DNA of 64,000 bases, from the NCBI GenBank assembly GCA_965209085.1, contig OZ242376.1:704001-768000 (forward strand). The letters are read 5' to 3'. The notes under the pieces were generated by a model that saw nothing but the letters and a program-made list of their open reading frames with translations, did not search any database and had not been told where the DNA came from. Below, in pieces: positions 19,441-33,600 of the stretch (position 1 is the first letter of the stretch; each line of letters begins with the position of its first letter). Made by a program: the position numbers and the translations under genes. The DNA comes from Nitrosopumilaceae archaeon (GTDB lineage: Archaea > Thermoproteota > Nitrososphaeria > Nitrososphaerales > Nitrosopumilaceae).

Positions 19441-20616
19441 GGGTTCGTGATCCTTGAGACCTTTGGAGTGAGTGGGGGTATCTGAGCTGCTGTGTTTCTT
19501 GGCTTTGAGCCCTGATAGGTGAGTGCAGCTTTTCAGCCGACAAAGGAAAAAGGAGGTGAAAAACATTGGAATTGACATTGGAAAAAAGACATGCGTAGTG
19601 TGTATTGTAGATGATTTTGGTAAAATACTAGAGGAGACAAAATACAACAATACCAGAAAAGATGCCAAAAAATTTGCCATACGTGTCAAAAAAAAAAGTA
19701 CAAAGCGTGCAGAGCAGTATGCGAATCCACCGCCAACATGTGGATAAAGACATCGAAGAATTTGAAGTTCAGAAAATATCTATAAAACTAGCAAATCCGT
19801 TTAAAACAAAGGCTATAGCACAGGCAAAAATAAAGACCGACAAGCTTGATGCAAGAGTCTTGGCACAACTGTGCAGAACGGATTTTGTGGCCGAATGCTA
19901 TGTGGTATCTATAAGAAATCCTGCGAAAATCGGGATCTTCTCAGGCATAGAATACGACTAGTGGAAGATCAGACAAAAGTAAAAGCAAGAGTAATCAGCA
20001 TACTGGACAAATACGACTTAACCAATACAGAAAAGCACGTTTGGCGTACATGGTATTGCATGGCTCAAAAAACAACAATACGATAACGGCAAAGGCAAGG
20101 CGATAATATTATCATGCATAAGACAGATTGAGCATATAGATTCAGAGATTGGTATGACAGAAGAACTCATCAGAGCAGAAGCAAAACATGACCAGTACGC
20201 CAAAACAATGAGTATGATCGGATTTGATTATTTTGGAGCCATGCTGCTTGCAACGGAAATTGATCGCATTGACAGATTTGATACGCCAAAACAACTTGTC
20301 TCATGGTCTGGTATGTGTCCTACAGTACACCAGTCTGGAGATTCGTTATATCATGGCAAGATGAAAAAAGATTCAAACCGTAAAGTGAACTGGATGTTGA
20401 CGCAGGCTGCAAACTCTGCGATAAGAGCGGATGGGAGGATGAAAAAATACTATCAACGCATACACAAAAAACATCCACACTCGGTGGCAGTAACACACGT
20501 TGCAAACAAAATGATAACGATAATCTGGCACATGCTGACAAACGATAAACCATACGATGTAAAACCAAAACTCTACGCTCAAAAGATCAACTGTGCATAA
20601 GGATTAGGCTGATTGG
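19441..20616 (+). mobile_element. IS110-family element A with a frameshifted transposase (about 19556-20600) and a non-coding left end
   Basis: DEDD motifs IGIDIGK and KTDKLDA, plus C-terminal 'SGMCPTVHQSG...GKMKKDSN', are split over four ORFs. Confidence 0.85.
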
Positions 20617-20985
20617 CAACGAGGAATCAACCATTGTGTCCGGATTGCTTACATAGGTGTTTTTCTGAAAGATGGCATTCTCTGCCAAGATGTTTATGTT
20701 GTATATGGAGGTTAGCCCATCCTCCATTACCCTGTATGAGTCATTGGCATATTGTTGTCTCTTTTACACCAAATTCCTCGCCAATCTCCTCCATTGTTTT
20801 GCCCTGTTTTCTTTTAATCCATGAGAGAAGACGCTGTTTTTGCAACTGGAATCTTTTCTTTTGCATGACAATTTCCAAGATATGCGTTGAGTTGTTTGCT
20901 TAGATTGTCCATATTGTGATGGATGTTGTACCGATCAAAAAGTTTTACTGTTTATGCAATATGAAAAGACTTTTGCTCATGACTA
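20617..20985 (-). pseudogene. IS630-family left end and N-terminal HTH relic
   Basis: The minus strand reads KQRLLSWIKRKQGKTMEEIGEEFGVKETTICQ*...GR..LS. The end is TA|TAGTCATGAGCAAAAG. Confidence 0.6.
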
Positions 20986-21046
20986 TAGGGTCTGCCAACA
21001 CTTCAAGTGCATCGGACTTGCATGTTTTCAGTCCATTAAACGGACA

Positions 21047-22375
21047 TTATGCGGTAGGATCTGAGATTCGACCCATAAATAAAATGGTTTCAGTCTGATC
21101 ATCCCATATTGCAAATATAAACGGATGATCCGCTTTGAATATGATTGAGGAGAATCTCAAAACATCCTCCATCGCAGCAGGTGGATCCGCTGGAACGGTT
21201 CCTTTTTCATGCACGTTTAAAAATGCTCTGTGAATCATATCGTCGATGCTTAATTCAGGTGCAGGTGACATATTCAACATGTTGGAATTTTTTTTATCAA
21301 ATGCATCAGTTATTCCAAGTTTTTTTAATGATGATATTAACGATCCAGAATATTCTGTATCTAATTTGAATGTTGGTATGATCACTTGAATGCTGTTCTG
21401 TAGCTCTGTGCTATCTATCCACGCAACAAATATCTCTGCTGTAAGTCTTTCTTCAAGTTTAGCAATACCGTACCTCTCTTCGGGAAGAACTATTACCATA
21501 GACAGACGTTGCGGATCAGACTTGTACGGGAGTTTTAGTATTTGTACATTGTCGATTTGTCTGTATTGTACATTCTCAATTTGTCTGTATTGTGCACCAC
21601 CGGCACGCACCATCACGTTAGTTTTTACAGATTCAACATTGTTTATCCAAAAATCAACGTAGCCTATTCTATCTTCTGCTATGAATTCATCCATCCAGGA
21701 TCCATAAAAAAAAATCGTGTTGACAATCATGAAATTCAAATCAGGATCCGATAGTGTCGTATAGTTTACTATTTTAGGTATCTTTCCCCTTGTTGAATCA
21801 TTCATCCATTTGTTAATTTTATCAGAACTTTGTGCATTAAATGAACCAACGGTATTGTTGTAATGGACAGCCATCGTATCGGTGTATTCGGGGAGTATTG
21901 GAAAACTATCTCTAACCCACAGGGAGTTTTTTATGTCCAAATCATAATCTGAGTTTGGGTTTGTAAGGCTCTCCACTAGATCTATTATTTCATTTCTGCG
22001 TGAATTATCATCAGAAGATATGTCAAGTGCGTCTTCCATCTGCAATGCAGTATTGTTTCTTGTACCCTCGTATGCCATCATCATGCCTACAAATATGCTT
22101 GTGGGTGAAAAAAAGATATTTTTATTACCGTCGGATTCGAGCATTTTGTACAAATTTATGGCAAGTATATTGTTTGCTTTGGAAACAGATTGTTCTGTAT
22201 TGTTTGCTTTGGAGATATATTGTTCTATATTGTTTGTTTCAGAAACAGATTGTTCTGTATTATCTTCAAGCTGTAATTTTAAATCGTATTCTGATATTAG
22301 AAATACAAAACCAAATGCGGCCGATATGATAATCCCTACTATGATAATTGAGAGTTTATCGTACGTTGAGACCAT
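21047..22375 (-). CDS. Serpin with N-terminal membrane anchor/signal and an atypical hinge
   Basis: Motifs NIFFSPTSI, INKWMNDSTRGKIP, NTIFFYGSW, FKADHPFIFAI and LFMGRISDP. There are 30-bp repeats near 22170-22260 and a 24-bp duplication near 21545-21595. Confidence 0.93.
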   Translation of the reverse strand: MVSTYDKLSIIIVGIIISAAFGFVFLISEYDLKLQLEDNTEQSVSETNNIEQYISKANNTEQSVSKANNILAINLYKMLESDGNKNIFFSPTSIFVGMMMAYEGTRNNTALQMEDALDISSDDNSRRNEIIDLVESLTNPNSDYDLDIKNSLWVRDSFPILPEYTDTMAVHYNNTVGSFNAQSSDKINKWMNDSTRGKIPKIVNYTTLSDPDLNFMIVNTIFFYGSWMDEFIAEDRIGYVDFWINNVESVKTNVMVRAGGAQYRQIENVQYRQIDNVQILKLPYKSDPQRLSMVIVLPEERYGIAKLEERLTAEIFVAWIDSTELQNSIQVIIPTFKLDTEYSGSLISSLKKLGITDAFDKKNSNMLNMSPAPELSIDDMIHRAFLNVHEKGTVPADPPAAMEDVLRFSSIIFKADHPFIFAIWDDQTETILFMGRISDPTA

Positions 22376-23001
22376 TTTTTACGTTTTCCCATGCGCTGAA
22401 GAATTTATAATATGTATCTTCGTAATTACTATTTTGAGATGTAATAATAATATTTGAATTACAAAATGATGAATTACTGACATCTATAGTGTTGGTATCT
22501 TCGGGTGTAAATATACAAACAGAACCAACATGTACACCCACAAGTACGGCGCCATCCCCATGATAAACAATAGGAGCCCCATTATCGCCAATTCTAGATT
22601 TATAATTGTCAATTCCCATTTCAGTGTATGTTCCTTGAATACTATCTATTGTTACGTTTTTGAAAACAAGACTCCCATCATTATTATTATATTGACCGTA
22701 TATGTTAATCGTGGACAAAACTTCCACGTCAGATAAAGTGCCATGAGTTACAGTGAATATAGTACCGTTTAACATTCGTACGTGGTTTAATGGTGCAGTT
22801 GTGTCACTATTACTTGTCCGAATAAATGCCGCGTCATAATTTCCAATAGTACCAATTCCATTCAATGTGGAAAATACTACTGTATTATTTAAATCACCTA
22901 TATGTGGTAATGGAATTACGTGCGTTGGTTCGTAAAAGTTGCGTGATGCGTTTATGGTATGACCTGCCACTACAACACCATGATGGCCATTAGTGGTTGT
23001 A
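22356..23001 (-). pseudogene. Chymotrypsin-fold (S1-like) protease domain, 5'-truncated by IS3, with the catalytic Ser replaced by Asn
   Basis: Motifs VVAGH, DAAFI, GDNGAP and GVHVG. The stop overlaps the serpin start by 20 nt. Confidence 0.7.
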
Positions 23002-24322
23002 TGGTGCGGACCCCTGTACAATGAGAACGTTTTTTGCATTAAAAATGATAGGATCGGAGGGCTTATTTTATCATTGCCCTCCGTGCGAGACCAAATTCTG
23101 ATGGCACCACACATCCTATTGCAGTGTACCTGGTTCTGATTGTAATCCTCAAAGGCGTATGATATTGCATTCTCTGCGTCCTGGAACGGCTCAAAGTCGC
23201 GCGGCCAGACATACTCTTTCTTGAGATTCTTGTGGAAGGATTCCACATGAGCATTTTGCTCTGACGTGTGATAGTGGATGAATTCCTGCCTCACACCGTA
23301 TACTTTTACAGCCTTGTCAAATTGCGCTAAAATATACTGGGAGCCGTTGTCGGTTCTTAAAACAAGCTTTGAGCAGTCTGGTTTCTTGGATGCCAAAGCT
23401 TCAGTTAATGCTGCAATTGCACCGTCGGTAATAGCTCTTGACTCAAACGCATATCCGACCCATTCGCGGGTAAATGCAAAGGATGTTGAATAGGTAACAC
23501 CATCTGTCCTGACCGCACCAAATGTACGTCATGTCAGCTTTCCAGAGCTGATCCGGTCCTGCAGGTTTTAGGCGCTTCCTTGAGCGAATAATCTCTTTTT
23601 TGGGTTTTGCAGACACACTCCGGCCCAGATAATGGTATATTTTCTTCACTTTTTTGCAGTTTACTGGTTTGCCTGTAATACGGGACATGGTGGCAGCCAT
23701 TCTTCGTGTTCCATATGTGGGTCTGCTCTGAGCAACCTGTTGCACCATCTTTGAGATTTCCTTGTCGATTTGAATAATGCGTGGTTTTTTCGGAGCGTAC
23801 AGCATATTGTTTGATATTCCGGTATAACGTATGGATTTGCGTGTACTGAGGCCTTGTTTTTGCATGAGGGTCAATGCTTTCATTTTGTGCTCTCCTCTAA
23901 CGTTTTTTTTAAAGCATCATTGGCTATGGTTAGATCTCCAATGATTCTCTTCAACTTGTCCATCTCATGATCGTGCTTTTTACTCTCATTACGATTATAC
24001 GGTTTTTTTATGCCTGCCTTGCCACATTCAAAGAATATGTCCCTCCACCGGGTAAAGGATGCCGGATTTATGTTATGTTTGCGACACAGTTCTGCAGGAG
24101 TGATGTGCGTGTTTATTGACTCCATGACGATACGCACCTTTTCGTCTGGAGCATGATGTGGTCTTTTCATTAGACCTCATGCATAATCATTAAAATCAGT
24201 CATTTTTATTCGTAAAAATTGTGAATTTGGTCCATTATGCATGAAGTCTATTGATGGATACCTCCAAGACTGGGTAAAATTTGTTTCACTTTGGGTGTTC
24301 TCATTTTATGGGGTCCACTCCA
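23002..24322 (-). mobile_element. IS3-family element (orfA 23880-24170; orfB from 23883, frameshifted)
   Basis: Ends are TGGTGCGGACCCC.TACAATGAGAAC and TGGAGTGGACCCCATAAAATGAGAAC. Motifs are WKADMTYI, TDNGSQY and NAHVESFH. Confidence 0.9.
24172..24249. mobile_element. 78-bp MITE with 16-bp TIRs and 3-bp target duplication
   Basis: ATT|AGACCTCATGCATAAT...ATTATGCATGAAGTCT|ATT. It is absent from the related IS3 left end at 50130-50272, and a second copy starts at 47039. Confidence 0.9.
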
Positions 24323-24592
24323 ATGCTTGATATCATATTTTGTATGCTAAAGGATAGGAGTGAATTTGAAATACATCATAGTTAAAGCAACAACCCGCGG
24401 GTTAGACTTTGGGGATGTTACCCCGGCTGCATAACTGCGGTAAGCTTTAACATGTAGATGAAGATGGTTGTGGGATTAAATCCTGAATGGATAGATGTCT
24501 TTTCATCTTTTGACTGGAAACAGACACATAGTGAAAGCCATACCGCATGACACAAAAAAGCAAGAAACCTTTAAAAAGTATTCACATGGATA
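24323..24592 (+). mobile_element. IS110/IS1111-type right-end relic (last 20 codons plus non-coding right end)
   Basis: MLDIIFCMLKDRSEFEIHHS* aligns with MLKVIYWLLKENRDFEQNYS* of element B. It ends in CACATGGATA like element B. Confidence 0.85.
24390..24510 (+). ncRNA. Putative bridge/seek RNA of the IS110 relic
   Basis: Two stem-internal loop-hairpin modules are conserved with 28415-28532 and show compensatory base changes. Confidence 0.75.
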
Positions 24593-24599
24593 AACTCTA

Positions 24600-25250
24600 T
24601 TATTCAAAGAGTTTATTCTTGCTAATCGTACTATCTTCGCCTATTAATCTATCACCATTTACTTTGTACATACCATACATGTCAGCCAAAGGCCACCATG
24701 CATCTGGAAAAATACGATGAGCTCTATCCACCATGATAAATACTTGATCTCCCTCATCATATAGTATCCTTGTAGAAGGAAATCTGCTTACAATCTCAAT
24801 TGTATCGTGTTCATATTCTTCTGTACCTCCTAGTATTTCATCAACATTGAGAAAATATTTAGTGTATGATAATTCACATCTAGATGTACAATTTTCTTTC
24901 GTGACTGTTCCTTTTTCCATCGAAGTTATTGTGCCGATCATTACGAGTTGTGCGTCATCTTTTATTTCATACGGATCTGTTGTAGTAAATGAACCAATAG
25001 ATACAATAGAGTTTGAATTAATTTCCGATGCATCAGTCAAATTCAATGCGTGTGGATTGTCACTTGAGGTTTCTGATTTTTTAGTATTTTTCAAATCATC
25101 ATTGTTCGTATGTATTTCCGAATTACTCGTATTCATGTTGTTGGCAGATACTAGTACATCATTACCAATTATGGTATCAGAACTGATAACAAAAACAACA
25201 GCTAGACCTGCAAACAATACGGTTAATGATAGTACAAGTTTTATATTCAT
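24600..25250 (-). CDS. Secreted or membrane-anchored hypothetical protein
   Basis: 216-aa ORF with an N-terminal hydrophobic helix followed by a low-complexity linker. Confidence 0.7.
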   Translation of the reverse strand: MNIKLVLSLTVLFAGLAVVFVISSDTIIGNDVLVSANNMNTSNSEIHTNNDDLKNTKKSETSSDNPHALNLTDASEINSNSIVSIGSFTTTDPYEIKDDAQLVMIGTITSMEKGTVTKENCTSRCELSYTKYFLNVDEILGGTEEYEHDTIEIVSRFPSTRILYDEGDQVFIMVDRAHRIFPDAWWPLADMYGMYKVNGDRLIGEDSTISKNKLFE

Positions 25251-25311
25251 TAGTACAACCTCATTGCGATCTTACGATCATCTTCATCGATATATGTGTT
25301 ATTATCATTCA

Positions 25312-26169
25312 GGCTCTGTCCATGAATAAAATCAAAAACATACCATAAAGCTTTTAGATCATGAACGTAAACAACCGAAAAAGCTTTGGATCAGTAGATC
25401 CGAGCCAATTTAATGAAATCAACAAAGCACAAACGACGAGGAAATCTTGCCAGATCATACCAAATGTTAACCTCGATTATAATGAAAGCAAAAAATCAAG
25501 TGATAAAGCCATGGAAACCAAGTCCGTTAGGACAAACCGGCTTTGACCACCTTGGGAATGACTGCGTGTATTGCCCTAAAAACAATGTAACAACTGTCAT
25601 ACGATGAACTCGTAGATTATCTTGAAGATTCACCACGTTTACTATCAATACTGGGCTTGAAAAGAGTGCCGTCAAGGTCGGCGTTGCAAGTAGCATCTAC
25701 TAGAATTGATGTACATTTCATCACATGAGTGATAAATTCTGCGAGCTGACCTGGAATGAAAGGTACGCTATACGGGGATTCTACAGGAATTGCAATAAAC
25801 GGGCATAACACATGGCTTGATGCAAAAAATGGATCAAGGTCCAGACGGGATTATCGCAAATTGCATATTGTAACTGCTGAAAACGGCATAATCATATCAT
25901 ATGATATTACCCATGCACGATGCCATGATGTACCAATATTTGAGCAAATATGTGGCACGCTGCCGCACGGTTCCGGCCACGTGATGCTTGATGCAGCATA
26001 TCTTTCACGTAATATATGCACGCTCATAGAAAAGATCGGACAAATTCCTGTAATAATGCCAAGAAAAGGTGTTCGCGTACGTGGATTTGACGCAATGGGA
26101 AAGATGCTTCGATGGCATCGTGATAATCCTGATGAATTTCGATCCACATACCACAAACGCAGCAACGTA
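25312..26169 (+). mobile_element. IS5-family (IS903-like) element, degraded and 3'-truncated
   Basis: TIR GGCTCTGTCCATGAAT. Motifs GDSTG, YRKLHI, HD, LDAAY and YHKRSNV, with internal stops. Highly similar to 46432-47038 and 52880-53433. Confidence 0.85.
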
Positions 26170-27145
26170 ACCATATGTGCCCAAGAAATCAAGGAATTCA
26201 GATGGTTGCTTAAATGATAAATCCGTATCAGTCAACAAACGCAAGCCCAAAAACAAAGCTCAAAATGCAAACAAAAACACTAGGGTGTTTAAGAGCAAGT
26301 CCATGTTTGTTGGAATTGACGCCCATAAAGAATTTCTCCAGATAGCAGCAATTGACGGCAAAGGCAAACTGATCTTAAACACGCGTGTTGAAAACAGACA
26401 CGCGGACATTAGAAAGTTTTTCCAAACAAGCATACCCGAGGGTTTAAAGATGGTAATGGAGTCATCATCTGTCTGGTACGGACTGTTCCGATACATGACC
26501 GACAGACTGGATCTTGATGTGATTCTCTCAAACCCATATCAGACAAAGGCCATTGCCGCATCCACTAAAAAAACAGACAAAGTTGATGCGCAAATTTTGG
26601 CAAATTTGCTGCGAGGAGGATATATCAACGAGTGCCATGTTCCAGGTAAAAAGATTGTAGAGCAAAGACAACTGGTCCGATACAGGCACAAACTTGTACA
26701 GGCGAGAACAAATATGAAAAATTCCATACATGGAATACTGCTCCAAAAAGGAATTAAAATTCCAGGACGTACGTTTTCGTACAAATACATTGCAAGCCTT
26801 TAAGCCATAAACGACTATCGAATAGACGGTTTTCTTGCATCCATTGGCCTTTATGATAATCAGATACAAAAAGCCAATGTACTGATCTACAAGAGTGCAC
26901 GTACAAGCCGGTATGCCGATATACTCAAAACTGTCCCCGGAATTGCAGATTTTACGGCATTAACGATTGCATCTGAGATTGATAATGTTGAGAGATTCTC
27001 TGATCCTGAAAAGCTAAAATCATACGCAGGACTTGCACCATCGGTCCGCAATTCTGCCAATCTCGTACATCATGGACACATAACAAAAAGAGGAAGCAGA
27101 ATGCTCAGGTGGGTTCTAGTTGAGGCAATACACTCGCACGTACTA

Positions 27146-28255
27146 TACCTGCAAGCATAAATTCGTTTAAAAATCCACCATTACACAGTAGCAACGTTTT
27201 TTGATCACGACATCGGAACCAATTCATGCAAGTTAGCAATGAGGATCTCCTCCAGGCTTATAATGACTGCAAAGATTCTCGCGTAGAAACAAGACTGCAT
27301 GCGATGTGTCTGGTGCAAATACGCGGCTACGACATACAAGAAACCGCGGATCTCGTATTCCGAACGTACCAGTTTGTACACAAATGGCACGTTCGATACG
27401 AAAAATACGGACTCATAGGCCTGGAGGAAGGGTCCTGATGCGGACGACCGCCAAAGATTTCACCAAATATCATGATGCAGATAGAAAAAAAGTTTACAAA
27501 AATCGGAACCATTACGCTTCCAAAGCAGGTCCGTGATTACATTAAAAATATGACAGGAATAACATATCATATTACGCATATATGCAGACTGATGCGGGAA
27601 TGGAAACTAAAATCAAAGGTACCGCAAAAAATACACGCTAATGCCTGCATCATACGCTGAGTGTTATGCATGGTATAGGCGCATAATGTGCATTATTGCC
27701 CACGAAATGGCAAGAGGGACAAAGATCTTTGTCCAGGATGAGACCATAGTGAGCAGTGATGGTAAACCGACTAAAAAATACTGGTGTAATGAGAATGAAC
27801 GTCCCATCTATACATGGAAGGGGGATCGCAGAAAATTCATAACATACGGAATGATTTCAGTTTCAGGGGAGAAATTTTTTAGATCATACGACAAGTTTGA
27901 TGGTCTGACGTTTTTATGATACATAAAAGATGCAGTAGCAAAATACGGCAGAATACTGGTAATCGTAGACAGAGCCCGGCAGCATAAAACGATAAAGCTT
28001 GAAGAATACATCAAAGAGAACAAGGATAAGATTCAGATAGAACACCTCCCAAGAGCATCACCACAACACAACACCATGGAGACGATCTGGCTTGTCGCCA
28101 AGCAGGATATGGATCATTCAGAATATTATCCCCAACTTGAAGAGAAGAGGGTTAGGTTTATGGAATATCTGCGTACGAGAAAACTGCCGGGTAATGTCAT
28201 TGATTATTTTAAACCAGAGTGGGTTAATTTTTAAACGAATTTATGATCTGGGGTA
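27146..28255 (+). mobile_element. IS630-family element (pseudogenised) inserted in the IS110-B transposase
   Basis: TIRs TACC......CATAAATTCGTTTAAAAAT with TA duplication (27144-45, 28256-57). Removing it restores HVLHAPKSD. Motifs QDET, VDRA and NTMETIW. Confidence 0.92.
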
Positions 28256-28414
28256 TACATGCACCAAAAAGTGACATTTCAATATTTTACAAGCGGCTTG
28301 CAAGAAAGAGAGGAAACTCCAAGGCTGCAGTTGCAGCAGCTGGAAAAATGCTAAAGGTGATTTACTGGTTACTAAAGGAGAATCGGGATTTTGAACAAAA
28401 TTACAGTTAGTTGC

Positions 28415-28532
28415 ACGACCGCGGCGCAGTATATGGAGATAGTGCTCCGAGATTGTAACTGCGGTAAGCTCTAACAAGTGGATGAAGATGGTTGTGGGGA
28501 TAATGCCCCGAATGGATATATGTCTCTCATTC
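28415..28532 (+). ncRNA. Putative bridge/seek RNA of IS110 element B
   Basis: The target-loop guide CGCAGTATA is complementary to the right junction. The donor-loop guides AGATGGTTG and AATGGATA match the element's own ends. Confidence 0.8.
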
Positions 28533-28617
28533 TTTAATTGGAAAAATAGCCCCTAGTGGATACTGTACAAAAATATGGAAAAACGCAAGGAATACTTAAA
28601 AAAGAGGCACATGGATA

Positions 28618-29733
28618 TACTGCGGATCAAAAGTAACTGCAATCTACAGCTTTTCTCATAACAAAATCCATTATTGATACTTTGAATCGTACAGTTCTAA
28701 AATATTCTGAAATTGTATATTTCATATTCTCAAATGTTTCATAATATTCAGTGACGGCCAACGCACGTTTGGCCTGATACCAACATTCTTCAACGGCACT
28801 CAGAAACGGTGAACTTGTAGGGAAAAACAAAAGCTTTACCTCATCTTTATTCTCAGATATATATTTTTTAATAATTTTGGATTTTCTGTGTTGTGCAGCT
28901 CTATCCGTAATTATGCAAATTTTTCCAAATTTTTGATGAGCCATTTTTAAAAACTTGAGAAATGATTTTGCATCAAACAAATCATAGCTTGCAAACATCT
29001 GCCTGCCATCAGATAAGAATAATCCAAAGACAACAACTTTTTTGTGAAAACCTGTGGATTTTACGTAACAATTTTTGCTTATTTCAATCCAGAGTTTCTT
29101 GCCGGATAATGAATCGTATTTTATTATACATTCATCCTGAACGCCTACTGCAAATCCACGCTCTTCAAGTAGGCGTATTTGACGCCTAGTGTTTTGCGAC
29201 CAGTTGTAGCAGACTGATGCCGGCGCTGCATTGACATGAATTCTTTTTGGAGCCTTGCTGACAAATGAGAATTTGTGAAGTCTTTTTCTGATGTTTGATA
29301 TGTGATATTTTACTTCGGTTTTGCGTTTAATGTTGTGCATTACCTGTTTTGGATCAACTGAACCGTTCTCTCGTCTTGTCATGTCAATAATTTTTTTAAA
29401 TCGTATATTTGATAATAATAAAGGCCTGCCCGATTTGGGCAGGGTTTTAAGACCGTCTAATCCAAGCTCGTCATATCGTTGCATGCATTCTTTGCCCCAG
29501 TTGTAGCTTTTCATCAATAATTCAGAAGCTTTAGCTATGGATATGTTTTGGTATTTGACCATGCTTACAAGATATATTTTTGATATCTCTTTTCTGTCTT
29601 TGACATGCCTGCTTGCATTATACAGTTCCTGATGTTCTTTGTTCATGATTGATTCATACCCGAGGTGATCCAAATATCTTGCGGTTACATTGTGTCTAGA
29701 GTCATAAATTGCAGTTACTTTTGCGTGTCAGTA
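28618..29733 (-). mobile_element. IS630-family element with an intact-looking transposase (28627-29673)
   Basis: TIRs TACTG.....CAAAAGTAACTGCAAT flanked by TA on both sides. Single 348-aa ORF with QDE, TDRA and SP...AVEECW. Confidence 0.92.
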
Positions 29734-29735
29734 TA

Positions 29736-30028
29736 GTACGCAGGATTTGGCACCTCCTGTACTAGTATCTGCCATTTCAACAACCACAACTGAAATAATC
29801 CTCACGTTTAGCGAACCGATAACTGAGCAATCTGGCAATGAGATAAACTATGCAATAACAGGAGCAGAGATCCGGGACATTACAAAGATCGGCTCAAATA
29901 CTGTGTTAATATCTGCAAGCCCGTTCATTATTGCAATAGTTCAGACTGCCCCCCTCTCAAACATACAGGACTTTTCTGGCAACACCGCAGAAAGAGGGTT
30001 AGACCAGAACGTCTTTAAAAGTGGTTAA
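29736..30028 (+). pseudogene. C-terminal fragment of a surface protein (Ig-like domain) cut by IS630
   Basis: APPVLVSA...IILTFSEPI...IQDFSGN is Ig-like. It has no proper start and abuts the IS end. Confidence 0.55.
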
Positions 30029-30617
30029 AGATAACCCATGTATGAGATCCGCACCTCGTGCTAATTTGTGCCTACATCTTCATTTATTGCATAAATTCTA
30101 GGCATGATGTGACCTCATACTAACACATCATCTAGTAGTAAAACTACACCCGTATGGAACTGCATCTAAAAAATCTCATACTGTAAGAAAAACTATACCT
30201 GAATTGCTTGCATCAAAAACGATCAAGATAAACGCATACGATACACGTAGTTTTTTGCAGCAATATGGGGGGCTCTAATGGAGCGCAGATTGTCGATTCA
30301 AAAGATACCGTTACAATCCTGCCTGAAATTAAACGCCAACCAAAATTCCTCGCATTTTGTAAAACCTGTAAAACACATCCGTAAACCCTGTAAATCCGGC
30401 ATAAAAAACAAAAGATTTGATCTGCAAACCGTAGATTCACTCTATAATTTTGATCGCAAACTCTTCAAAAAACTCTCAATTACACACTAGAGAATTCACA
30501 TTTTACCTGACTGCGTATTTTCCAAAGCCGTGTGCAAATAACAGCCAACATTTTGTCGCCAATAGTCAAAAAATATTGTTTATCATAGTCTATGATACGG
30601 TACATCGTATACAATAC

Positions 30618-33600
30618 ATGGTACACATCCGTAAAGTGGAGATATTTGGTTTCAAATCGTTTGGTTTTCGCAATACGGTTGTGGATTTTAGACCCGGACT
30701 TGTTTCAATATCCGGACCCAACGGTTCGGGAAAAAGCAACATACTTGATGCGATCATATTTGCAAGCGGCGAGATGCGCCCAAAAGTAATGAGAGTCGAT
30801 AAAATCCGATCCCTCATACACGATGTCTCATCCTCTGGCGGGGGTTCCCGCATGGCCCGGGTGAGCGTCCATTTTGATAATTCAGACAGAAAGATACCCT
30901 TTGATTCAGACTCTGTAGAGATAACGCGCGAGCTCTCCCCTGACGGTGAGAATACCTATTACATTAACAAGAAAAAAACCCAGCGAACGCACGTGGTGGA
31001 CCTGCTAGAGATGGCAAACGCGGGACTGCACCAGCTAAACGCGGTCCAGCAGGGAACTGTCACGAGGATATCTGAATTTACCGCCGAGGAAAAACGCCAC
31101 GCCATAGAGGATTTGGTGGGCATGTCAATGTTTGATGAGAAAAAAACAGCGGCACAAAACCAGCTAGAAGCGGCTGATAACAAACTCAACGTGGCGTTTG
31201 CCACAATGGTGCAGATAAAAAAACAGATAGATGATTTGGAATTGCAAAGAAATCTGCAGATGCGGCATGTCTATATGCAAAACGAGCTTGCAAGACTGCA
31301 GGCAGAGTCTGCTGCCGGAAAAATCTACCGCCTAAATAACACAAAACAGGAAAAATCGCAGACACTCCTGTCAGTATCCGAAGAGATAAACTCTACCAAA
31401 GAAAATCTTGGAAAAATACGCGCAGTAATAAAAACAGTAGAGGATGAAAAATCTCAATTTCTTGCAAAGATGAACGAGTATAATAGGGAAAAAGCGCAGA
31501 CTGACAAACAACTAGCCGATGCTATGGGATCCTTTGAGGAGACGCGCGCAATCCTTGCGGTTTCAAAAAAACGCACAGACCAGATTGATGCGCGCACAAA
31601 CGATCTACACATACAGTCTAAAAATGCAGCAAAACTCAAAGATGAAGCAAAATCAAACCTGCATACAAAACATGAATCACTTGAAAAACTTGAATCAGAA
31701 AAAAAACGCATCGCAGGCAATGTTACATCATCTGATGAGCGCCGAATGAAAATACTGCAAAGACAGTCAGCTGAATCTGAGCGCCGTCGGCAAGTGGATG
31801 AAAAACTGCAAGAGATGACCTCTGCATTTCATGATGAGGAGCTAGCGGCAATAAAGGCTAAAAACACACTCTCAGAGTATGATGCAAAAATTAACACAAA
31901 CAAAACAAAAATGACACAATGCATGCAAAACATTGAAAAACTGCAAAATCTAAAAAACAGCGTATCTGCCATTTGGCAGGGACGAAAAGATGATGTGCAG
32001 AAAATCACATCTTATTTGAACTCATTAAAGGCCAAAAAGGCAAAAGCTGAACGCGATTTGGAGGATTTGGAGATTATACTTGAAAAATCCACCAAAGCTG
32101 GAGCCAAATACGACTCAAAGATACAAACGGTACGCAATTTTATGCACGAGGATTATTCGGTTGCAAAGCTAAAAGAGCACGCAACCCGGCTTGGAATACT
32201 TGGATTGGTGTACGAGCTTCTTTCATGGGATAAGGAATACGAGCGGGCAATCATGGCTTCTGGCTCTGAGTGGATAAAGGCAATCGTGGTAAAAGATTTT
32301 GAAACTTTAGTGGCGTTAGCTGAGCATGTTCGGGCACAAAAACTGCCCAAAGTCAAGATAATCCCTCTTGATGCACTCACCACTATAGGGAATGCAAATT
32401 CAGAGGGCGGGCCACACCGGATGCTCTCATCTCATATACGGTGCTCAAATGATCACCGATATTTGGCAGAATTTTTATTTGGAAGTATAGCCGTGGTCAA
32501 ATCCAACAAAGAGGCCTTTGAGGCTTCAAACTCTGGATACAAGGTGGTTACGATGGATGGCAACTTTGTACAGCCACACTCGTCCGGCGTTGTAATTGAC
32601 ATAAACTCCCGTATCTCAAAAATTGCTAGAATAATCTCAATGAGCATGTCAGTTCAGGGGCTGCTTGAATCAGTATCAGTGCTGAAAAAACATACAATTT
32701 CTAAAAAATCTGCCATACAAAAGGCATCTTTGAGAATCTCTGAGAGAGAAGCCCTGCTTCGTACCTTAGTATCTGGAATGGAAAAAGCACAGGGCAGCGG
32801 GGCAGACTTGGAAGATAGCATTAAAAACGCCTCCACACTGTACAATTCAATCAAAGAGCGCATGAATGTAATTGATAAAGAGCGCGCCTCCTCTCAGATG
32901 CAAATGAGCGAGTGCGCTCCAAAACTGGAGTCATTAAAATCTGAAATTTCATCCTTGAAAGTGAGCCGTACTGGAATTGACATTGAATCAATAGAGGCAG
33001 ATTTGCAAAAAGCAAACAAGGAAAAATCAGTAATTAATGTACAATACTCTGCCATACTTGAAGAGTATGGCAGCATCTTTGCATTATCTGCCAAACTTGA
33101 CGCTGAAATTTTACGGCACGATGAGTCAATATCACTTGCAGAAAAAGAAATGCAATCGCTTGCATCTGAGAAAATAACACTCTCTGAGCGTATCATATCA
33201 CTTGACGTACAATTAATTGATCAAAATAAAATCCTAGTATCGCTGCGCGAGGGCGAGCAGCGGCTCATTGAGGGACAGGGCGGTTCAGCTTCTGAGATTG
33301 AGGTGTATGATGAGCAGACGCAGCAGATGCGCATAAAGGAGAATGAATTTACAGATTCCAAGACAAAGGCTGTGCGGCGCTCAGATGGCCTAAACCGTGA
33401 CATCTCCGAGTTGTCCATAAGAGTTGATGCACTCAAAAAGGCGCTAAACTCATACCGCGGGGAGATTGCATACGATCCAAACTTTGATCCGGAACCTTTG
33501 CTGCGAGGATTGGATGCTGAACTGCGCACCCTTGGGGATTTGAATGCGACAGCTCCTGCCACATACGTGGAGATATCTACTGGATACCGTTCAATGTCCA

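What the first reader, a model, noticed from the sequence alone, without database searches (positions are those of the whole stretch)
24390..28624. Two archaeal IS110/IS1111 right ends reveal a bridge-type RNA with readable, reprogrammed guides
Seen: 24390-24510 and 28415-28532 share a two-module scaffold. Loop 1 is CCGCGG-[9 nt variable]-hairpin-[8 nt variable]-ACTGCGG. Loop 2 is GATGA-AGATGGTTG-hairpin-AATGGATA. The inner hairpins covary (GGGG/CCCC vs GGAG/CTCC; GGGA/TCCT vs GGGG/CCCC). The constant loop-2 segments fit the predicted circle junction ATGGA-TA-ACCATAT (28611-17 plus 26168-76): AATGGATA has the same sense as the right end, and ATGGTTG pairs with TAACCAT. The variable loop-1 segments fit each copy's own flank: CGCAGTATA vs TATACTGCG (9/9), and TAGACTTTG vs TAAACTCTA at 24591-99 (7 pairs, 1 G-T, 1 mismatch, register shifted by 2). 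Known: IS621 bridge RNA and IS1111 seekRNA work this way. Inference: a compact thaumarchaeal programmable recombinase with a TA core, whose enzyme could be rebuilt by removing the IS630 and reverting one TAA.
Basis: partly seen in the sequence, partly recalled or inferred. Interest (0 to 1): 0.85.

Follow-up and report, generated by a model that had tools for sequence, protein, structure and literature searches.

The report
Archaeal IS1111-type element with guide RNA
Two copies of an insertion sequence in an ammonia-oxidising-archaeon-like genome carry, after the transposase gene, a small two-loop RNA gene whose variable stretches match the DNA beside each insertion, which makes it a new archaeal member of the already known RNA-guided IS110/IS1111 family.

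Summary
Window 24323-24592 is a 3' fragment of one subfamily (A). Window 26168-28617 is a full copy of a second subfamily (B), broken by a nested IS630-like element and an in-frame TAA. Both belong to one IS110-family element. The genome holds about 16 A and 4 B right ends. A covariance model finds the RNA in 13 of 151 genomes of the same family. Stems covary: 20 of 28 pairs change on both sides. The 5' segment of loop 1 is complementary to the right flank and the 3' segment has the sense of the left flank plus TA. Both exceed 5000 of 5000 shuffles. Guide variants GAC and GAG go with flanks GTC and CTC inside this one genome. The 3' segment of loop 2 copies the right end (33 of 44 identical 7-mers). 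The guide order is that published for IS1111 seekRNA. Verdict: a new, well-documented archaeal member of a known kind. No RNA or recombination data exist. Rebuilding B is unnecessary, because A copies A1 and A8 encode an intact 331-aa enzyme. One feature is unexplained: a same-sense copy of the loop-2 5' segment in the left end that covaries with it.

The parts
24323..24592 (+). 3' fragment of a subfamily-A element: last transposase codons, RNA gene and right end. The 5' part is lost.
   Evidence: blastn to full A copies covers query 1884-2161 only. Alignment of 21 right ends. Contig loose ends at 24323 and 24592.
24381..24511 (+). RNA gene, copy A, from P1 to the T-run. Contains target loop 24395-24440 and donor loop about 24456-24507.
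   Evidence: Model R1 hit at genome 728378-728517, E 3e-34. Folds.
24401..24410 (+). [quoted passage not shown]
24425..24434 (+). Target guide g2 of copy A (GGCTGCATAA). TGCA-TA has the sense of the left flank plus core seen in full A copies.
24464..24493 (+). Donor loop of copy A: ATGGTTGT (complementary to left end ACCAT plus core), hairpin, GAATGGATA (same sense as right end ATGGATA).
24570..24577 (+). A/T box TTTAAAAA, 22 nt before the right end. Candidate archaeal TATA box firing outward.
   Evidence: Box found at 21-24 nt from the end in 21 of 33 distinct right-end tails. Function is inferred.
24586..24601 (+). Right terminus ATGGA-TA (to 24592) and right flank AACTCTATT.
   Evidence: loose end at 24592.
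24179..24253 (.). About 75-nt palindromic repeat (MITE-like) whose end TTATGCA-TG-AAGTCTAT is an unoccupied variant of the A target.
   Evidence: Loose end at 24242 continuing as the A left end in other copies.
25756..26169 (+). Truncated IS5-type DDE transposase gene that forms the left flank of B2.
   Evidence: PF01609, E 2e-12. Other copies continue past 26169 (loose ends).
26168..28617 (+). Subfamily-B element B2. Left junction is TA + ACCATATGTG, right end is CACATGGA-TA. It is 2450 nt including the nested element.
26199..26209 (+). Left-end internal motif CAGATGGTTGC, same sense as the donor-loop 5' segment. Unexplained.
26303..26803 (+). Transposase, N-terminal part, ending in the in-frame TAA (26801-26803) seen in all three B copies whose translation was printed (B2, B3, B4) and consistent with the same 166-aa ORF in B1.
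   Evidence: PF01548, E 3e-26..
26804..27143 (+). Transposase, middle part (PF02371).
   Evidence: Insertion point.
27144..28255 (+). Nested, decayed IS630-like element (1112 nt, TA..TA) that interrupts the B2 transposase.
   Evidence: Contigs join 27143 to 28256 in 3 of 4 runs. B1 comparison. HTH_23 hit.
28256..28410 (+). Transposase, C-terminal part, with stop TAG at 28408-28410 inside P1.
28406..28535 (+). RNA gene, copy B. Guides: g1 28425-28434, g2 28449-28458, donor 5' 28488-28495, donor 3' 28510-28518.
   Evidence: R1 hit at genome 732403-732541, E 1e-24. Fold z -2.2.
28596..28603 (+). A/T box TTAAAAAA, 22 nt before the right end.
   Evidence: Function is inferred.
28618..29736 (-). IS630-like element (DDE_3 transposase at 28627-29673). 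Its terminal repeat TACTGCGGATC plus the abutting TA is the B target.

Best explanation
Both stretches are right ends of one IS110-family element of the IS1111 type. It has a DEDD/serine transposase of 331 aa, then a roughly 130-nt RNA gene, then the right end.

Proposed RNA structure: an outer stem and two internal loops.
- Loop 1 selects the target. [quoted passage not shown] - Loop 2 holds the element's own joined ends. Its 5' segment ATGGT pairs with ACCAT at the left end. Its 3' segment AATGGATA has the sense of the right end.

Proposed cycle: the enzyme-RNA complex recombines a circular copy (junction ...CACATGGA-TA-ACCATATG...) with the target at the shared T(A/G) dinucleotide, without target duplication.

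Targets in this genome:
- Subfamily A aims at the terminal repeat of another IS and its MITEs: TTATGCA-TA-xGGTCTAAT, or -AACTCTAAT for a retargeted lineage.
- Subfamily B aims at the TA beside the terminal repeat of an IS630-like element.

Only A1 and A8 encode an intact enzyme. The defective lineages still spread, presumably supplied in trans, each steered by its own RNA.

Shown here: the anatomy, the covariation, the guide-flank and guide-end matches, the empty sites and the family membership of the protein. Inferred: that the RNA is made (probably as the 3' part of the transposase transcript), that it binds the enzyme, and that it is required.
For: Protein:
- PF01548 + PF02371.
- NCBIfam NF033542 'IS110 family RNA-guided transposase', 219 bits against a cut-off of 140.
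- Matches ISCro4 and IS621 chains.

Copies:
- 13 full elements (9 A, 4 B) plus solo right ends.
- A1 and A8 are 99.7% identical. B copies are 98.2-99.3% identical.

RNA:
- Model R1 matches 13 of 151 genomes of the family.
- On 46 aligned matches, 90.1% of cells pair, against 82.4% shuffled and 35-48% slid. 20 of 28 pairs have changes on both sides. 0 of 500 shuffles reach this.

Target loop, right side:
- 50 distinct guide/flank pairs have a mean longest match of 4.98 nt. 1918 non-cognate pairs give 2.99.
- 22 of 50 pairs reach 6 nt or more, against 26 of 1918 non-cognate pairs.
- 0 of 5000 shuffles reach the observed mean.

Target loop, left side:
- 31 pairs match for a mean of 2.29 nt beyond TA, against 0.29 for non-cognate pairs.
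- 14 of 31 reach 3 nt or more, against 11 of 798.
- 0 of 5000 shuffles reach the observed mean.

Within this genome: 4 of 4 GAG-guide copies sit at CTC flanks, and 6 of 9 GAC-guide loci sit at GTC flanks.

Examples in relatives:
- L037: 9/9.
- L063 against L064: ACG and AAG change in guide and flank together.
- L030 and L038: left match of 7 nt.

Empty sites:
- TTATGCATAAACTCTAAT (2 sites) and other variants.
- 3 IS630-like ends without B reading xxTA|TACTGCGG (one of them TATTGCGG), against 4 with B.

Donor loop:
- The 3' segment equals the right-end 7-mer in 33 of 44 copies.
- The G/A at position 3 is concordant in 42 of 44.
- L032 and L039 change ACCAT to GTCAT at the left end, and ATGGT to ATGAC or ATGGC in the RNA.

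Guide order equals that of IS1111 seekRNA (PMC11187229, section 9). The RNA lies in the right end, as Durrant et al. predict for IS1111 (PMC11208160, passages).
Against: - No expression or activity data. No RNA run was listed and only contigs could be laid, so neither the RNA nor a circle junction was seen.
- Single-sequence folds are only weakly better than shuffles (z -1.4 and -2.2).
- Copies within a genome and between kin are not independent, so the shuffle tests overstate significance.
- The A3 alignment was fitted to the model.
- Some copies do not match their own guide: 3 of 9 GAC loci, L060, L061, and B's left side, which matches 0-1 nt beyond TA. This needs trans action or weak left-side reading to explain.
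- The left terminus ACCAT is nearly invariant, so the loop-2 5' pairing rests on one lineage (L032 and L039).
- The 2 nt after ATGGT in the RNA do not pair with the TA core in most subfamilies. They track an internal left-end motif instead. The simple bridge model does not predict this.
- The closing stem of loop 2 is unresolved.
Confidence: 0.88

Rival explanations
1. Only loop 1 works as a guide (a plain seekRNA). Loop 2 is a protein-binding scaffold, and its likeness to the ends is inherited repeat sequence (all are ATGG(A/T)T-like), not base pairing with the donor.
For: - The short 82-nt seekRNA of ISEc11 suffices for movement (PMC11187229, section 10).
- The left terminus is almost invariant, so pairing with it is barely tested.
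- The variable dinucleotide of the 5' segment does not fit the core.
- The left end holds a further same-sense copy of the motif.
Against: - The 3' segment follows right-end changes at three positions: ATGGATA, ATAGATA, ATAGATG and ATGGGT, with 33 of 44 identical 7-mers.
- L032 and L039 show matched changes at the left end.
- The geometry mirrors loop 1: the 5' segment is complementary to the top strand and the 3' segment has the same sense.
Confidence: 0.07
2. The conserved right-end structure is a 3' UTR, terminator or transposase-binding end. Target choice is made by the protein, and the matches to flanks arise because all copies sit in the same few repeats.
For: - Most targets are repeated elements, so flanks are alike by descent.
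- Fold z-scores are modest.
Against: - Guide and flank change together between lineages that keep the same scaffold: GAC/GTC against GAG/CTC, L047 against L050, L063 against L064, and A against B.
- Non-cognate pairings score at background.
- The matching segments lie about 160-190 nt inside the element, so they are not misplaced boundaries.
- The family is experimentally RNA-guided (PMC11208160, PMC11187229).
Confidence: 0.03
3. The system is a fossil. All copies here are inactive relics, and the matches record past events only.
For: - 11 of 13 full copies have stops, frameshifts or insertions.
- The window's own two copies are both dead.
Against: - A1 and A8 have open 331-aa frames with the DEDD and serine positions aligned to ISCro4. 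They are 99.7% identical.
- Defective lineages have several distinct insertion sites.
Confidence: 0.15

Closest known systems
IS1111-group elements with seekRNA (ISEc11, ISPa11, ISKpn4; Siddiquee et al. 2024, PMC11187229)
   Same: - The RNA is encoded downstream of the transposase.
- The top-strand match lies 5' of the bottom-strand match.
- Natural retargeting occurs by changing the two short segments.
- Targets are repeats or ends of other mobile elements.
- Subterminal inverted repeats are present.
- The transposase is about 330-350 aa.
- The RNA is thought to be co-transcribed with the transposase and then processed.
   Different: - The host is archaeal.
- A whole A/T box (TATA-like) sits in the right end, instead of a -35/-10 promoter split across the junction (inferred).
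- The motif reads GLAPSVRNSA, with SA where the family has S(t)G.
- The subterminal repeat is short and has a 2-nt offset.
- The left non-coding end is long (135 nt) and carries a same-sense copy of the loop-2 5' segment.
IS621 bridge RNA (IS110 group; Durrant et al. 2024, PMC11208160; Hiraizumi et al. 2024, PMC11208158)
   Same: - There are two internal loops, one for the target and one for the donor.
- Each loop reads both strands around a shared core dinucleotide.
- The recombinase is DEDD + serine (sequence match to 8wt6, E 6e-6).
- The guide extends by one base onto the donor side of the right junction (A-TA-...), which recalls handshake pairing.
   Different: - The RNA is in the right end, not the left.
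- The order of strand reading within each loop is reversed.
- The core is T(A/G), not CT.
- The RNA is about 130 nt against 177 nt (the IS621 length is recalled, not from a call).
- Where donor and target cores differ, the junctions suggest exchange within the core. IS621 cuts the top strand after the core (passage read).
Archaeal IS110-family transposases in general (662 archaeal homologues counted in bioRxiv 10.1101/2024.06.21.599552; ISHvo9 and ISHvo10 in ISfinder, named in PMC11187229)
   Same: Same protein family in archaea. Several archaeal clades are known.
   Different: In the passages read, those works treat the proteins and do not describe the RNA, targets or retargeting of a Nitrosopumilaceae clade. 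Their supplements could not be seen and may list such elements.

Membership tests
IS110 family (DEDD transposase) | N-terminal DEDD RuvC-like domain and C-terminal Tnp domain | tested here: met
   PF01548 (98 bits) and PF02371 (77 bits) on the intact A1 protein. Both are also found on the B pieces. NF033542 equivalog scores 219 bits against a cut-off of 140.
IS110 family (DEDD transposase) | Catalytic D, E, D, D and serine present | tested here: inconclusive
   In the alignment to ISCro4, D of GMDVHK, E of VMESSS, both D of KTDKRDA and S of VRNSA align with identical residues. That these are the catalytic positions is taken from IS621 numbering (D11, E60, D102, D105, S241; PMC11208158 passage). 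It was not mapped residue by residue here.
IS110 family (DEDD transposase) | Site-specific insertion without target duplication, with a shared core dinucleotide | tested here: met
   Empty sites carry one TA where occupied sites have TA at both junctions.
IS1111 group | Longer non-coding region and RNA downstream of the transposase | tested here: met
   About 207 nt downstream against 135 nt upstream. The RNA model matches downstream of the stop codon in all copies.
IS1111 group | Subterminal inverted repeats of 7-17 bp | tested here: inconclusive
   Left CCAT(AT)GTGAA against right TTCACATGG gives 9 matched positions with a 2-nt offset. The inner part covaries between A (GTGAA/TTCAC) and B (GTGCC/GGCAC). 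This is short and imperfect compared with the definition.
IS1111 group | Transposase of 330-350 aa with a GL-P----S(t)G motif | tested here: inconclusive
   Length is 331 aa. The motif reads GLAPSVRNSA, so the serine is kept but the following residue is A. The definition comes from PMC11187229, section 6.
IS1111 group | seekRNA order: top-strand match 5' of the bottom-strand match | tested here: met
   against PMC11187229 section 9.
Bridge RNA (two-loop, target and donor) | Target loop segments covary with both target halves | tested here: met
   (both sides, 0 of 5000 shuffles). Within-genome GAC and GAG variants.
Bridge RNA (two-loop, target and donor) | Donor loop segments match both element ends around the core | tested here: inconclusive
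   The right-end side is well supported (33 of 44 identical; 42 of 44 concordant at the variable position). The left-end side has 5 nt that are nearly invariant, with matched change in one lineage only. The next 2 nt do not fit the core.
Bridge RNA (two-loop, target and donor) | The RNA is expressed, binds the recombinase and is required for recombination | not testable with these tools
   No RNA run was available. Contigs only.
Rfam RNA families | Match to a curated model | tested here: not met
   Nothing relevant at E up to 10 in window 20000-32000.

The most novel reading that the evidence does not exclude
The left end carries a hairpin-less, same-sense replica of the donor-binding loop (AGATGGTnn, followed by a weak copy of the 3' segment), 28-34 nt inside the terminus. 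It co-varies with the RNA encoded 1.2 kb away through five different dinucleotides. If functional, it is a part that the published bridge/seekRNA models lack. Three possibilities follow.
- A mimic of the loop in the transposase mRNA leader that binds the enzyme, giving autoregulation or loading in cis.
- A target of an antisense transcript that sequesters the RNA.

Together with the outward TATA-like box and the spread of enzyme-dead copies that keep their own guides, this would describe an archaeal variant of the system with its own control layer.
Probability: 0.25. Interest if true: 0.65.

Novelty: new member of a known kind. Interest (0 to 1): 0.45.

Why it matters
RNA-guided IS110/IS1111 recombinases are being developed as programmable DNA-insertion tools. 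Almost all studied examples are bacterial. This locus offers several things.
- A compact archaeal, mesophile-type enzyme (331 aa) with an RNA of about 130 nt.
- Readable rules: about 6-10 nt on the right side and 3-7 nt plus TA on the left.
- A natural experiment in one genome. Sister lineages differ by one guide base and sit in targets that differ by the matching base.
- Enzyme-dead copies that still spread with their own guides.
- IS-on-IS targeting as a shaper of these small genomes. Four of seven ends of one IS630-like element carry a B copy.

The principle itself was published in 2024. NCBI's family model already names the protein an RNA-guided transposase. A specialist would therefore find the case useful rather than surprising.

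Tried and rejected
- Rfam scan of 20000-32000 at E up to 10: only three chance-level hits, none on the RNA.
- The look-up of sequencing runs: no RNA holder listed. Four DNA-type contig sets were returned.
- Read laying on window 23000-30000 used contigs only. It gave the nested-element joint and loose ends from other copies of the repeats. It gave no circle junction and no information on transcripts. The runs may be the source organism and are not independent support.
- Finding left ends by the reverse complement of the right subterminal 7-mer gave mostly chance hits. I replaced it with anchoring on the transposase N-terminus by tblastn. This found a left end for 31 distinct guide/flank pairs. 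Loci without an N-terminal match were left out of the left-side test.
- Rows dropped from the right-side test: matches without a recognisable right end or with a guide shorter than 8 nt (L039, L070, L005, L045, L058 second hit, L054), plus duplicates. 53 pairs became 50 unique pairs.
- The search for related loci in genome contigs returned one locus only, a Nitrosopumilus MAG at 54% identity.
- A phylum-wide search with R1 found nothing outside the family, 0 of 131 genomes. The model is narrow and strict filters were used, so this is not evidence of absence.
- I tried to explain the variable dinucleotide after ATGGT by pairing with the core, with the last bases of the left target, with the first bases of the right target, with the bases after the subterminal repeat and with neighbours in the RNA. 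None fitted across subfamilies (by eye).
- A 7-nt match of the L038 left end to the reverse complement of its target guide was judged part of the weak 3'-segment copy or chance.
- RNAalifold on the loop-2 region picked the proximal stem only because the distal strand does not align in register. A per-sequence helix search favoured the distal one. This is left open.
- A regex mis-parsed the RNA segment, so its '6 of 18' is wrong. The 13 of 15 subfamilies given in the report was read by eye.
- The script failed on a pattern and was corrected.
- No structure or complex prediction was run, because the family assignment did not need it.

Full report
**What is in the window**

Window 24340-24620 and 28365-28645 align over 282 columns at 81% identity. 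The alignment starts in the last codons of an IS110-family transposase and ends at CACATGGATA.

Copy B is a whole element, 26168-28617. Its features are:
- left junction TA + ACCATATGTG;
- transposase start at 26303;
- an in-frame TAA at 26801-26803;
- a nested IS630-like element at 27144-28255;
- transposase stop at 28408-28410;
- the RNA region at 28406-28535;
- right end ...CACATGGA-TA at 28617.

Copy A (24323-24592) is only the last 270 nt of a second subfamily. Rfam has no match there.

The window lies in a 1.69-Mb single-contig genome. blastn finds 16 loci with an A-type right end. It also finds 4 full B-type right ends and some fragments. The 21 copies are aligned.

Thirteen elements are full length, 9 A and 4 B. 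Their coding state is:
- Only A1 and A8 have an open 331-aa frame.
- A3 and A9 share a stop at codon 38.
- A6 and A7 share a frameshift.
- B2, B3 and B4 show the same TAA at codon 167, and all four B copies give the same 166-aa ORF. B1 also has a 2-nt deletion.

A1 and A8 are 99.7% identical in DNA. B copies are 98.2-99.3% identical. The A and B proteins share 60% identity over 327 residues.

The intact protein has PF01548 and PF02371. It scores 219 bits on NCBIfam NF033542, 'IS110 family RNA-guided transposase', against a cut-off of 140. It matches the solved ISCro4 and IS621 recombinases.

**Targets and boundaries**

*Subfamily A.* All A left junctions read ...(T)TATGCA-TA|ACCATATG, except A6, which reads ...CAGTTA-TA. 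Right flanks read xGGTCTAAT or AACTCTA(A/T)T.

These two halves are the end of another IS. That IS has a DDE-type transposase and is seen as a 370-nt repeated tail. They are also the end of a roughly 75-nt palindromic MITE-like repeat.

The tail's end was read at 15 places: 14 listed copies plus the query's own copy upstream of A2. Seven unoccupied ends read TTATGCATAAGGCCTA(A/T)T. Five read TTATGCATGAACTCTA(A/G)T. Two read TTATGCATAAACTCTA(A/T)T. One carries element A3.

So the target has one TA and an occupied site has TA at both junctions. There is no duplication beyond the shared core.

*Subfamily B.* All four copies abut the terminal repeat TACTGCGGATC... of an IS630-like element. Three further copies of that end have no B and read xxTA|TACTGCGG, one of them TATTGCGG. 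B's left flanks differ from each other. These are therefore four separate insertions beside four copies of the same end.

**The RNA scaffold**

Single folds give an outer stem P1, a stem P2 (CCGCGG/CUGCGG) and an inner hairpin P3. A second module follows with an inner hairpin P5.

A covariance model built from 14 own-genome sequences matches 13 of 151 genomes of the same taxonomic family. That is 12 of 150 genomes besides the own genome, in 8 of 27 genera. The same-genus genome G019 has 21 matches and G079 has 9.

In a phylum-wide sample the model matches only that family: 2 of 19 genomes there and 0 of 131 in other families. The model is narrow and strict filters were used.

On 46 matches from relatives:
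- 90.1% of cells form standard pairs, against 82.4% after shuffling and 35-48% when partners are slid.
- 20 of 28 pairs show changes on both sides.
- 0 of 500 shuffles reach these values.

Helices P1, P2, P3 and P5 carry the signal. The alignment was fitted to the model and kin are not independent, so I treat this as strong but not as a probability.

The closing stem of loop 2 is not settled:
- The proximal partner (GGAUG with UGUCC) is chosen by RNAalifold. It has one lineage with a double change, L034.
It reaches 10 bp in L027, and L033 has GGGACAA/UUGUCCU.

A run of T follows the distal strand. The transposase stop codon lies inside P1.

**Loop 1 reads the target**

The 5' segment is the 10 nt before P3. 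It is the reverse complement of the right flank, usually including the core and the last base of the element. The 3' segment, after P3, ends in TA(A/G). Upstream of that TA it has the sense of the left flank.

Right side:
- 50 distinct guide/flank pairs give a mean longest exact match to the flank alone of 4.98 nt.
- 1918 pairings between unrelated guide classes give 2.99 nt.
- 22 of 50 pairs reach 6 nt or more, against 26 of 1918.
- 0 of 5000 shuffles reach the observed mean.

Left side:
- 31 distinct pairs match for 2.29 nt beyond TA on average, against 0.29 nt for non-cognate pairs.
- 14 of 31 reach 3 nt or more, against 11 of 798.
- 0 of 5000 shuffles reach the observed mean.

The most telling cases are single-base switches on one scaffold.
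- In this genome, the four copies with guide TTAGAG all sit at CTCTA flanks.
- Of nine independent loci with guide TTAGAC, six sit at GTCTA or GTCCA flanks and three at CTCTA flanks.
- In G019, guides ...AAATATAT and ...AAATGTAT go with flanks TATTTAC and CATTTAC.
- L063 and L064 change ACG/AAG in guide and flank together.
- L037 has a different guide and matches its flank 9 of 9.
- A6 changes TGCATA to TGTATA where its left flank has T at that place.

The window's copy A is one of the three GAC copies at a CTC site. Either a sibling RNA directed that insertion, or the guide changed later.

Misfits exist and are listed under evidence against:
- L060 and L061 sit at sites that match another lineage's guide.
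- B's left segment matches only 0-1 nt beyond TA.

**Loop 2 reads the element's ends**

The 3' segment AATGGATA or AATAGATA has the sense of the right end. The 7-mer is identical in 33 of 44 copies. The G/A at its third position agrees in 42 of 44. The last base agrees in 37 of 44. L029 has ATGGGT in both places.

The 5' segment ATGGT is complementary to ACCAT at the left end. That end is nearly invariant. In L032 and L039 it is GTCAT, and the RNA reads ATGAC and ATGGC.

The layout mirrors loop 1 and fits a junction ...CATGGA-TA-ACCAT.... I consider donor reading likely but less well tested than target reading.

**Comparison with the literature**

- Siddiquee et al. report that IS1111-type elements carry the RNA downstream of the transposase. 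The top-strand match lies 5' of the bottom-strand match, the reverse of the IS110 type. They also describe natural retargeting between ISEc11 and ISXne4 (PMC11187229; sections 6, 9, 10 and 13 and passages read).
- Durrant et al. place the bridge RNA of IS1111 members in the right end. They predict one in 93% of ISfinder IS1111 entries. [quoted passage not shown]
- The element here follows the IS1111 order.
- Archaeal IS110-family proteins are known. A preprint counts 662 (10.1101/2024.06.21.599552, passages). ISHvo9 and ISHvo10 are named in PMC11187229.
- Three full-text searches listed no paper whose title or abstract start, as listed, describes this RNA in ammonia-oxidising archaea. The ranking was not specific, and supplements were closed.
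- The best named relative of the protein is an 'IS110 family transposase' of a Nitrosopumilus MAG, at 54% identity. 1459 proteins match at E of 1e-10 or better. The best non-self match is 59% identical.

**Things the simple model does not cover**

1. *Left-end internal motif.* Every left end carries (C/T)AGATGGTnn, 28-34 nt inside the terminus, with the same sense as the loop-2 5' segment. The two bases after ATGG(T/C) differ between subfamilies (TG, AC, GC, AA, AG). They are the same in the RNA and in this motif in 13 of 15 subfamilies, read by eye. In some lineages a weak copy of the 3' segment follows, for example L068 AGATAAATG against AGATAAGTG. These two bases do not pair with the TA core except by wobble for TG. 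I could not find their partner.
2. *A/T box in the right end.* A box (YTTAWAAA) starts 21-24 nt before the right end in 21 of 33 distinct tails, with near variants in most others. By the usual archaeal spacing, which I recall rather than take from a call, it would start transcription a few bases past the end. In a circle that means into the left end and the transposase. This matches the published idea of co-transcription of transposase and RNA from a junction promoter (PMC11187229 discussion passage). Here, though, the whole box lies in one end.
3. *Where the strands exchange.* Sometimes the target core is TG and the donor core is TA. Examples are G019 group 1, whose empty site GTTC-TG-CATTCAC lies inside L054, and the own-genome fragment at 670144. 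In G019 group 1 the left junction reads TA and the right junction reads TG; the fragment at 670144 lacks its left end and shows only the right junction, which reads TG. This suggests exchange inside the dinucleotide. IS621 cuts its top strand after the core (PMC11208158 passage).

**Verdict**

The finding is correct and well founded. It concerns a kind of system described in 2024, and the protein model used by NCBI already names it. It is a new archaeal member with unusually clear natural evidence for retargeting. The left-end replica is the one feature that might be new. Nothing here shows expression or activity.

Noticed in passing
window 26199-26209; genome-wide in all A and B left ends; L024-L069 left ends: Same-sense copy of the donor-loop 5' segment (AGATGGTnn) lies 28-34 nt inside the left end. 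Its variable dinucleotide agrees with the RNA in 13 of 15 subfamilies. It also forms an inverted repeat with the terminus ACCATATG.
   Followed up: partly
window 24570-24577 and 28596-28603: A positionally fixed A/T box sits 21-24 nt before the right end (21 of 33 distinct tails by a strict pattern). It is a candidate outward archaeal promoter that would read into the left end in a circle.
   Followed up: partly
window 28618-29736 and genome copies at 667870, 856437, 1172113, 1091053, 1361699, 580712: An IS630-like element with terminal repeat TACTGCGGATC and TA duplication. Four of seven copies of this end carry a B element exactly at the TA.
   Followed up: yes
window 24179-24253; many genome sites (query 741-816): A roughly 75-nt palindromic MITE-like repeat. 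Its ends (ATTAGACCGTATGCATAAT...) equal the terminal repeats of a larger IS with a 384-aa DDE transposase. Both serve as the A target. It also lies directly upstream of the IS3-like orfA at 23880-24170.
   Followed up: partly
window 23443-24170 (-): IS3-family orfA/orfB remnants (HTH_Tnp_1, HTH_21, start of rve). orfB is truncated.
   Followed up: no
G019 loci L047, L050, L053, L054; own genome 670144 region: With TG-core targets the left junction reads TA and the right junction reads TG. The second core base is therefore donor-derived on the left and target-derived on the right.
   Followed up: partly
L024 (G019 C1 27985-31123), L042, L033: Tandem or nested partial right ends. L024 has two RNA genes 355 nt apart. 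L042 has a right end followed by a repeated right-end tail. L033 has a duplicated CCACATGGATA. These suggest insertion of one copy into or beside another.
   Followed up: no
window 21047-22375 (-): A 442-aa ORF that looks like a serpin-type protein by eye (ending ...FIFAIWDDQTETILFMGRISDP). It was not tested with any tool.
   Followed up: no
window 22356-23396 (-): An ORF whose first part looks like the C-terminal end of an integrase-type transposase, fused to an unrelated C-terminal region. This is probably a read-through of an IS remnant. Not tested.
   Followed up: no
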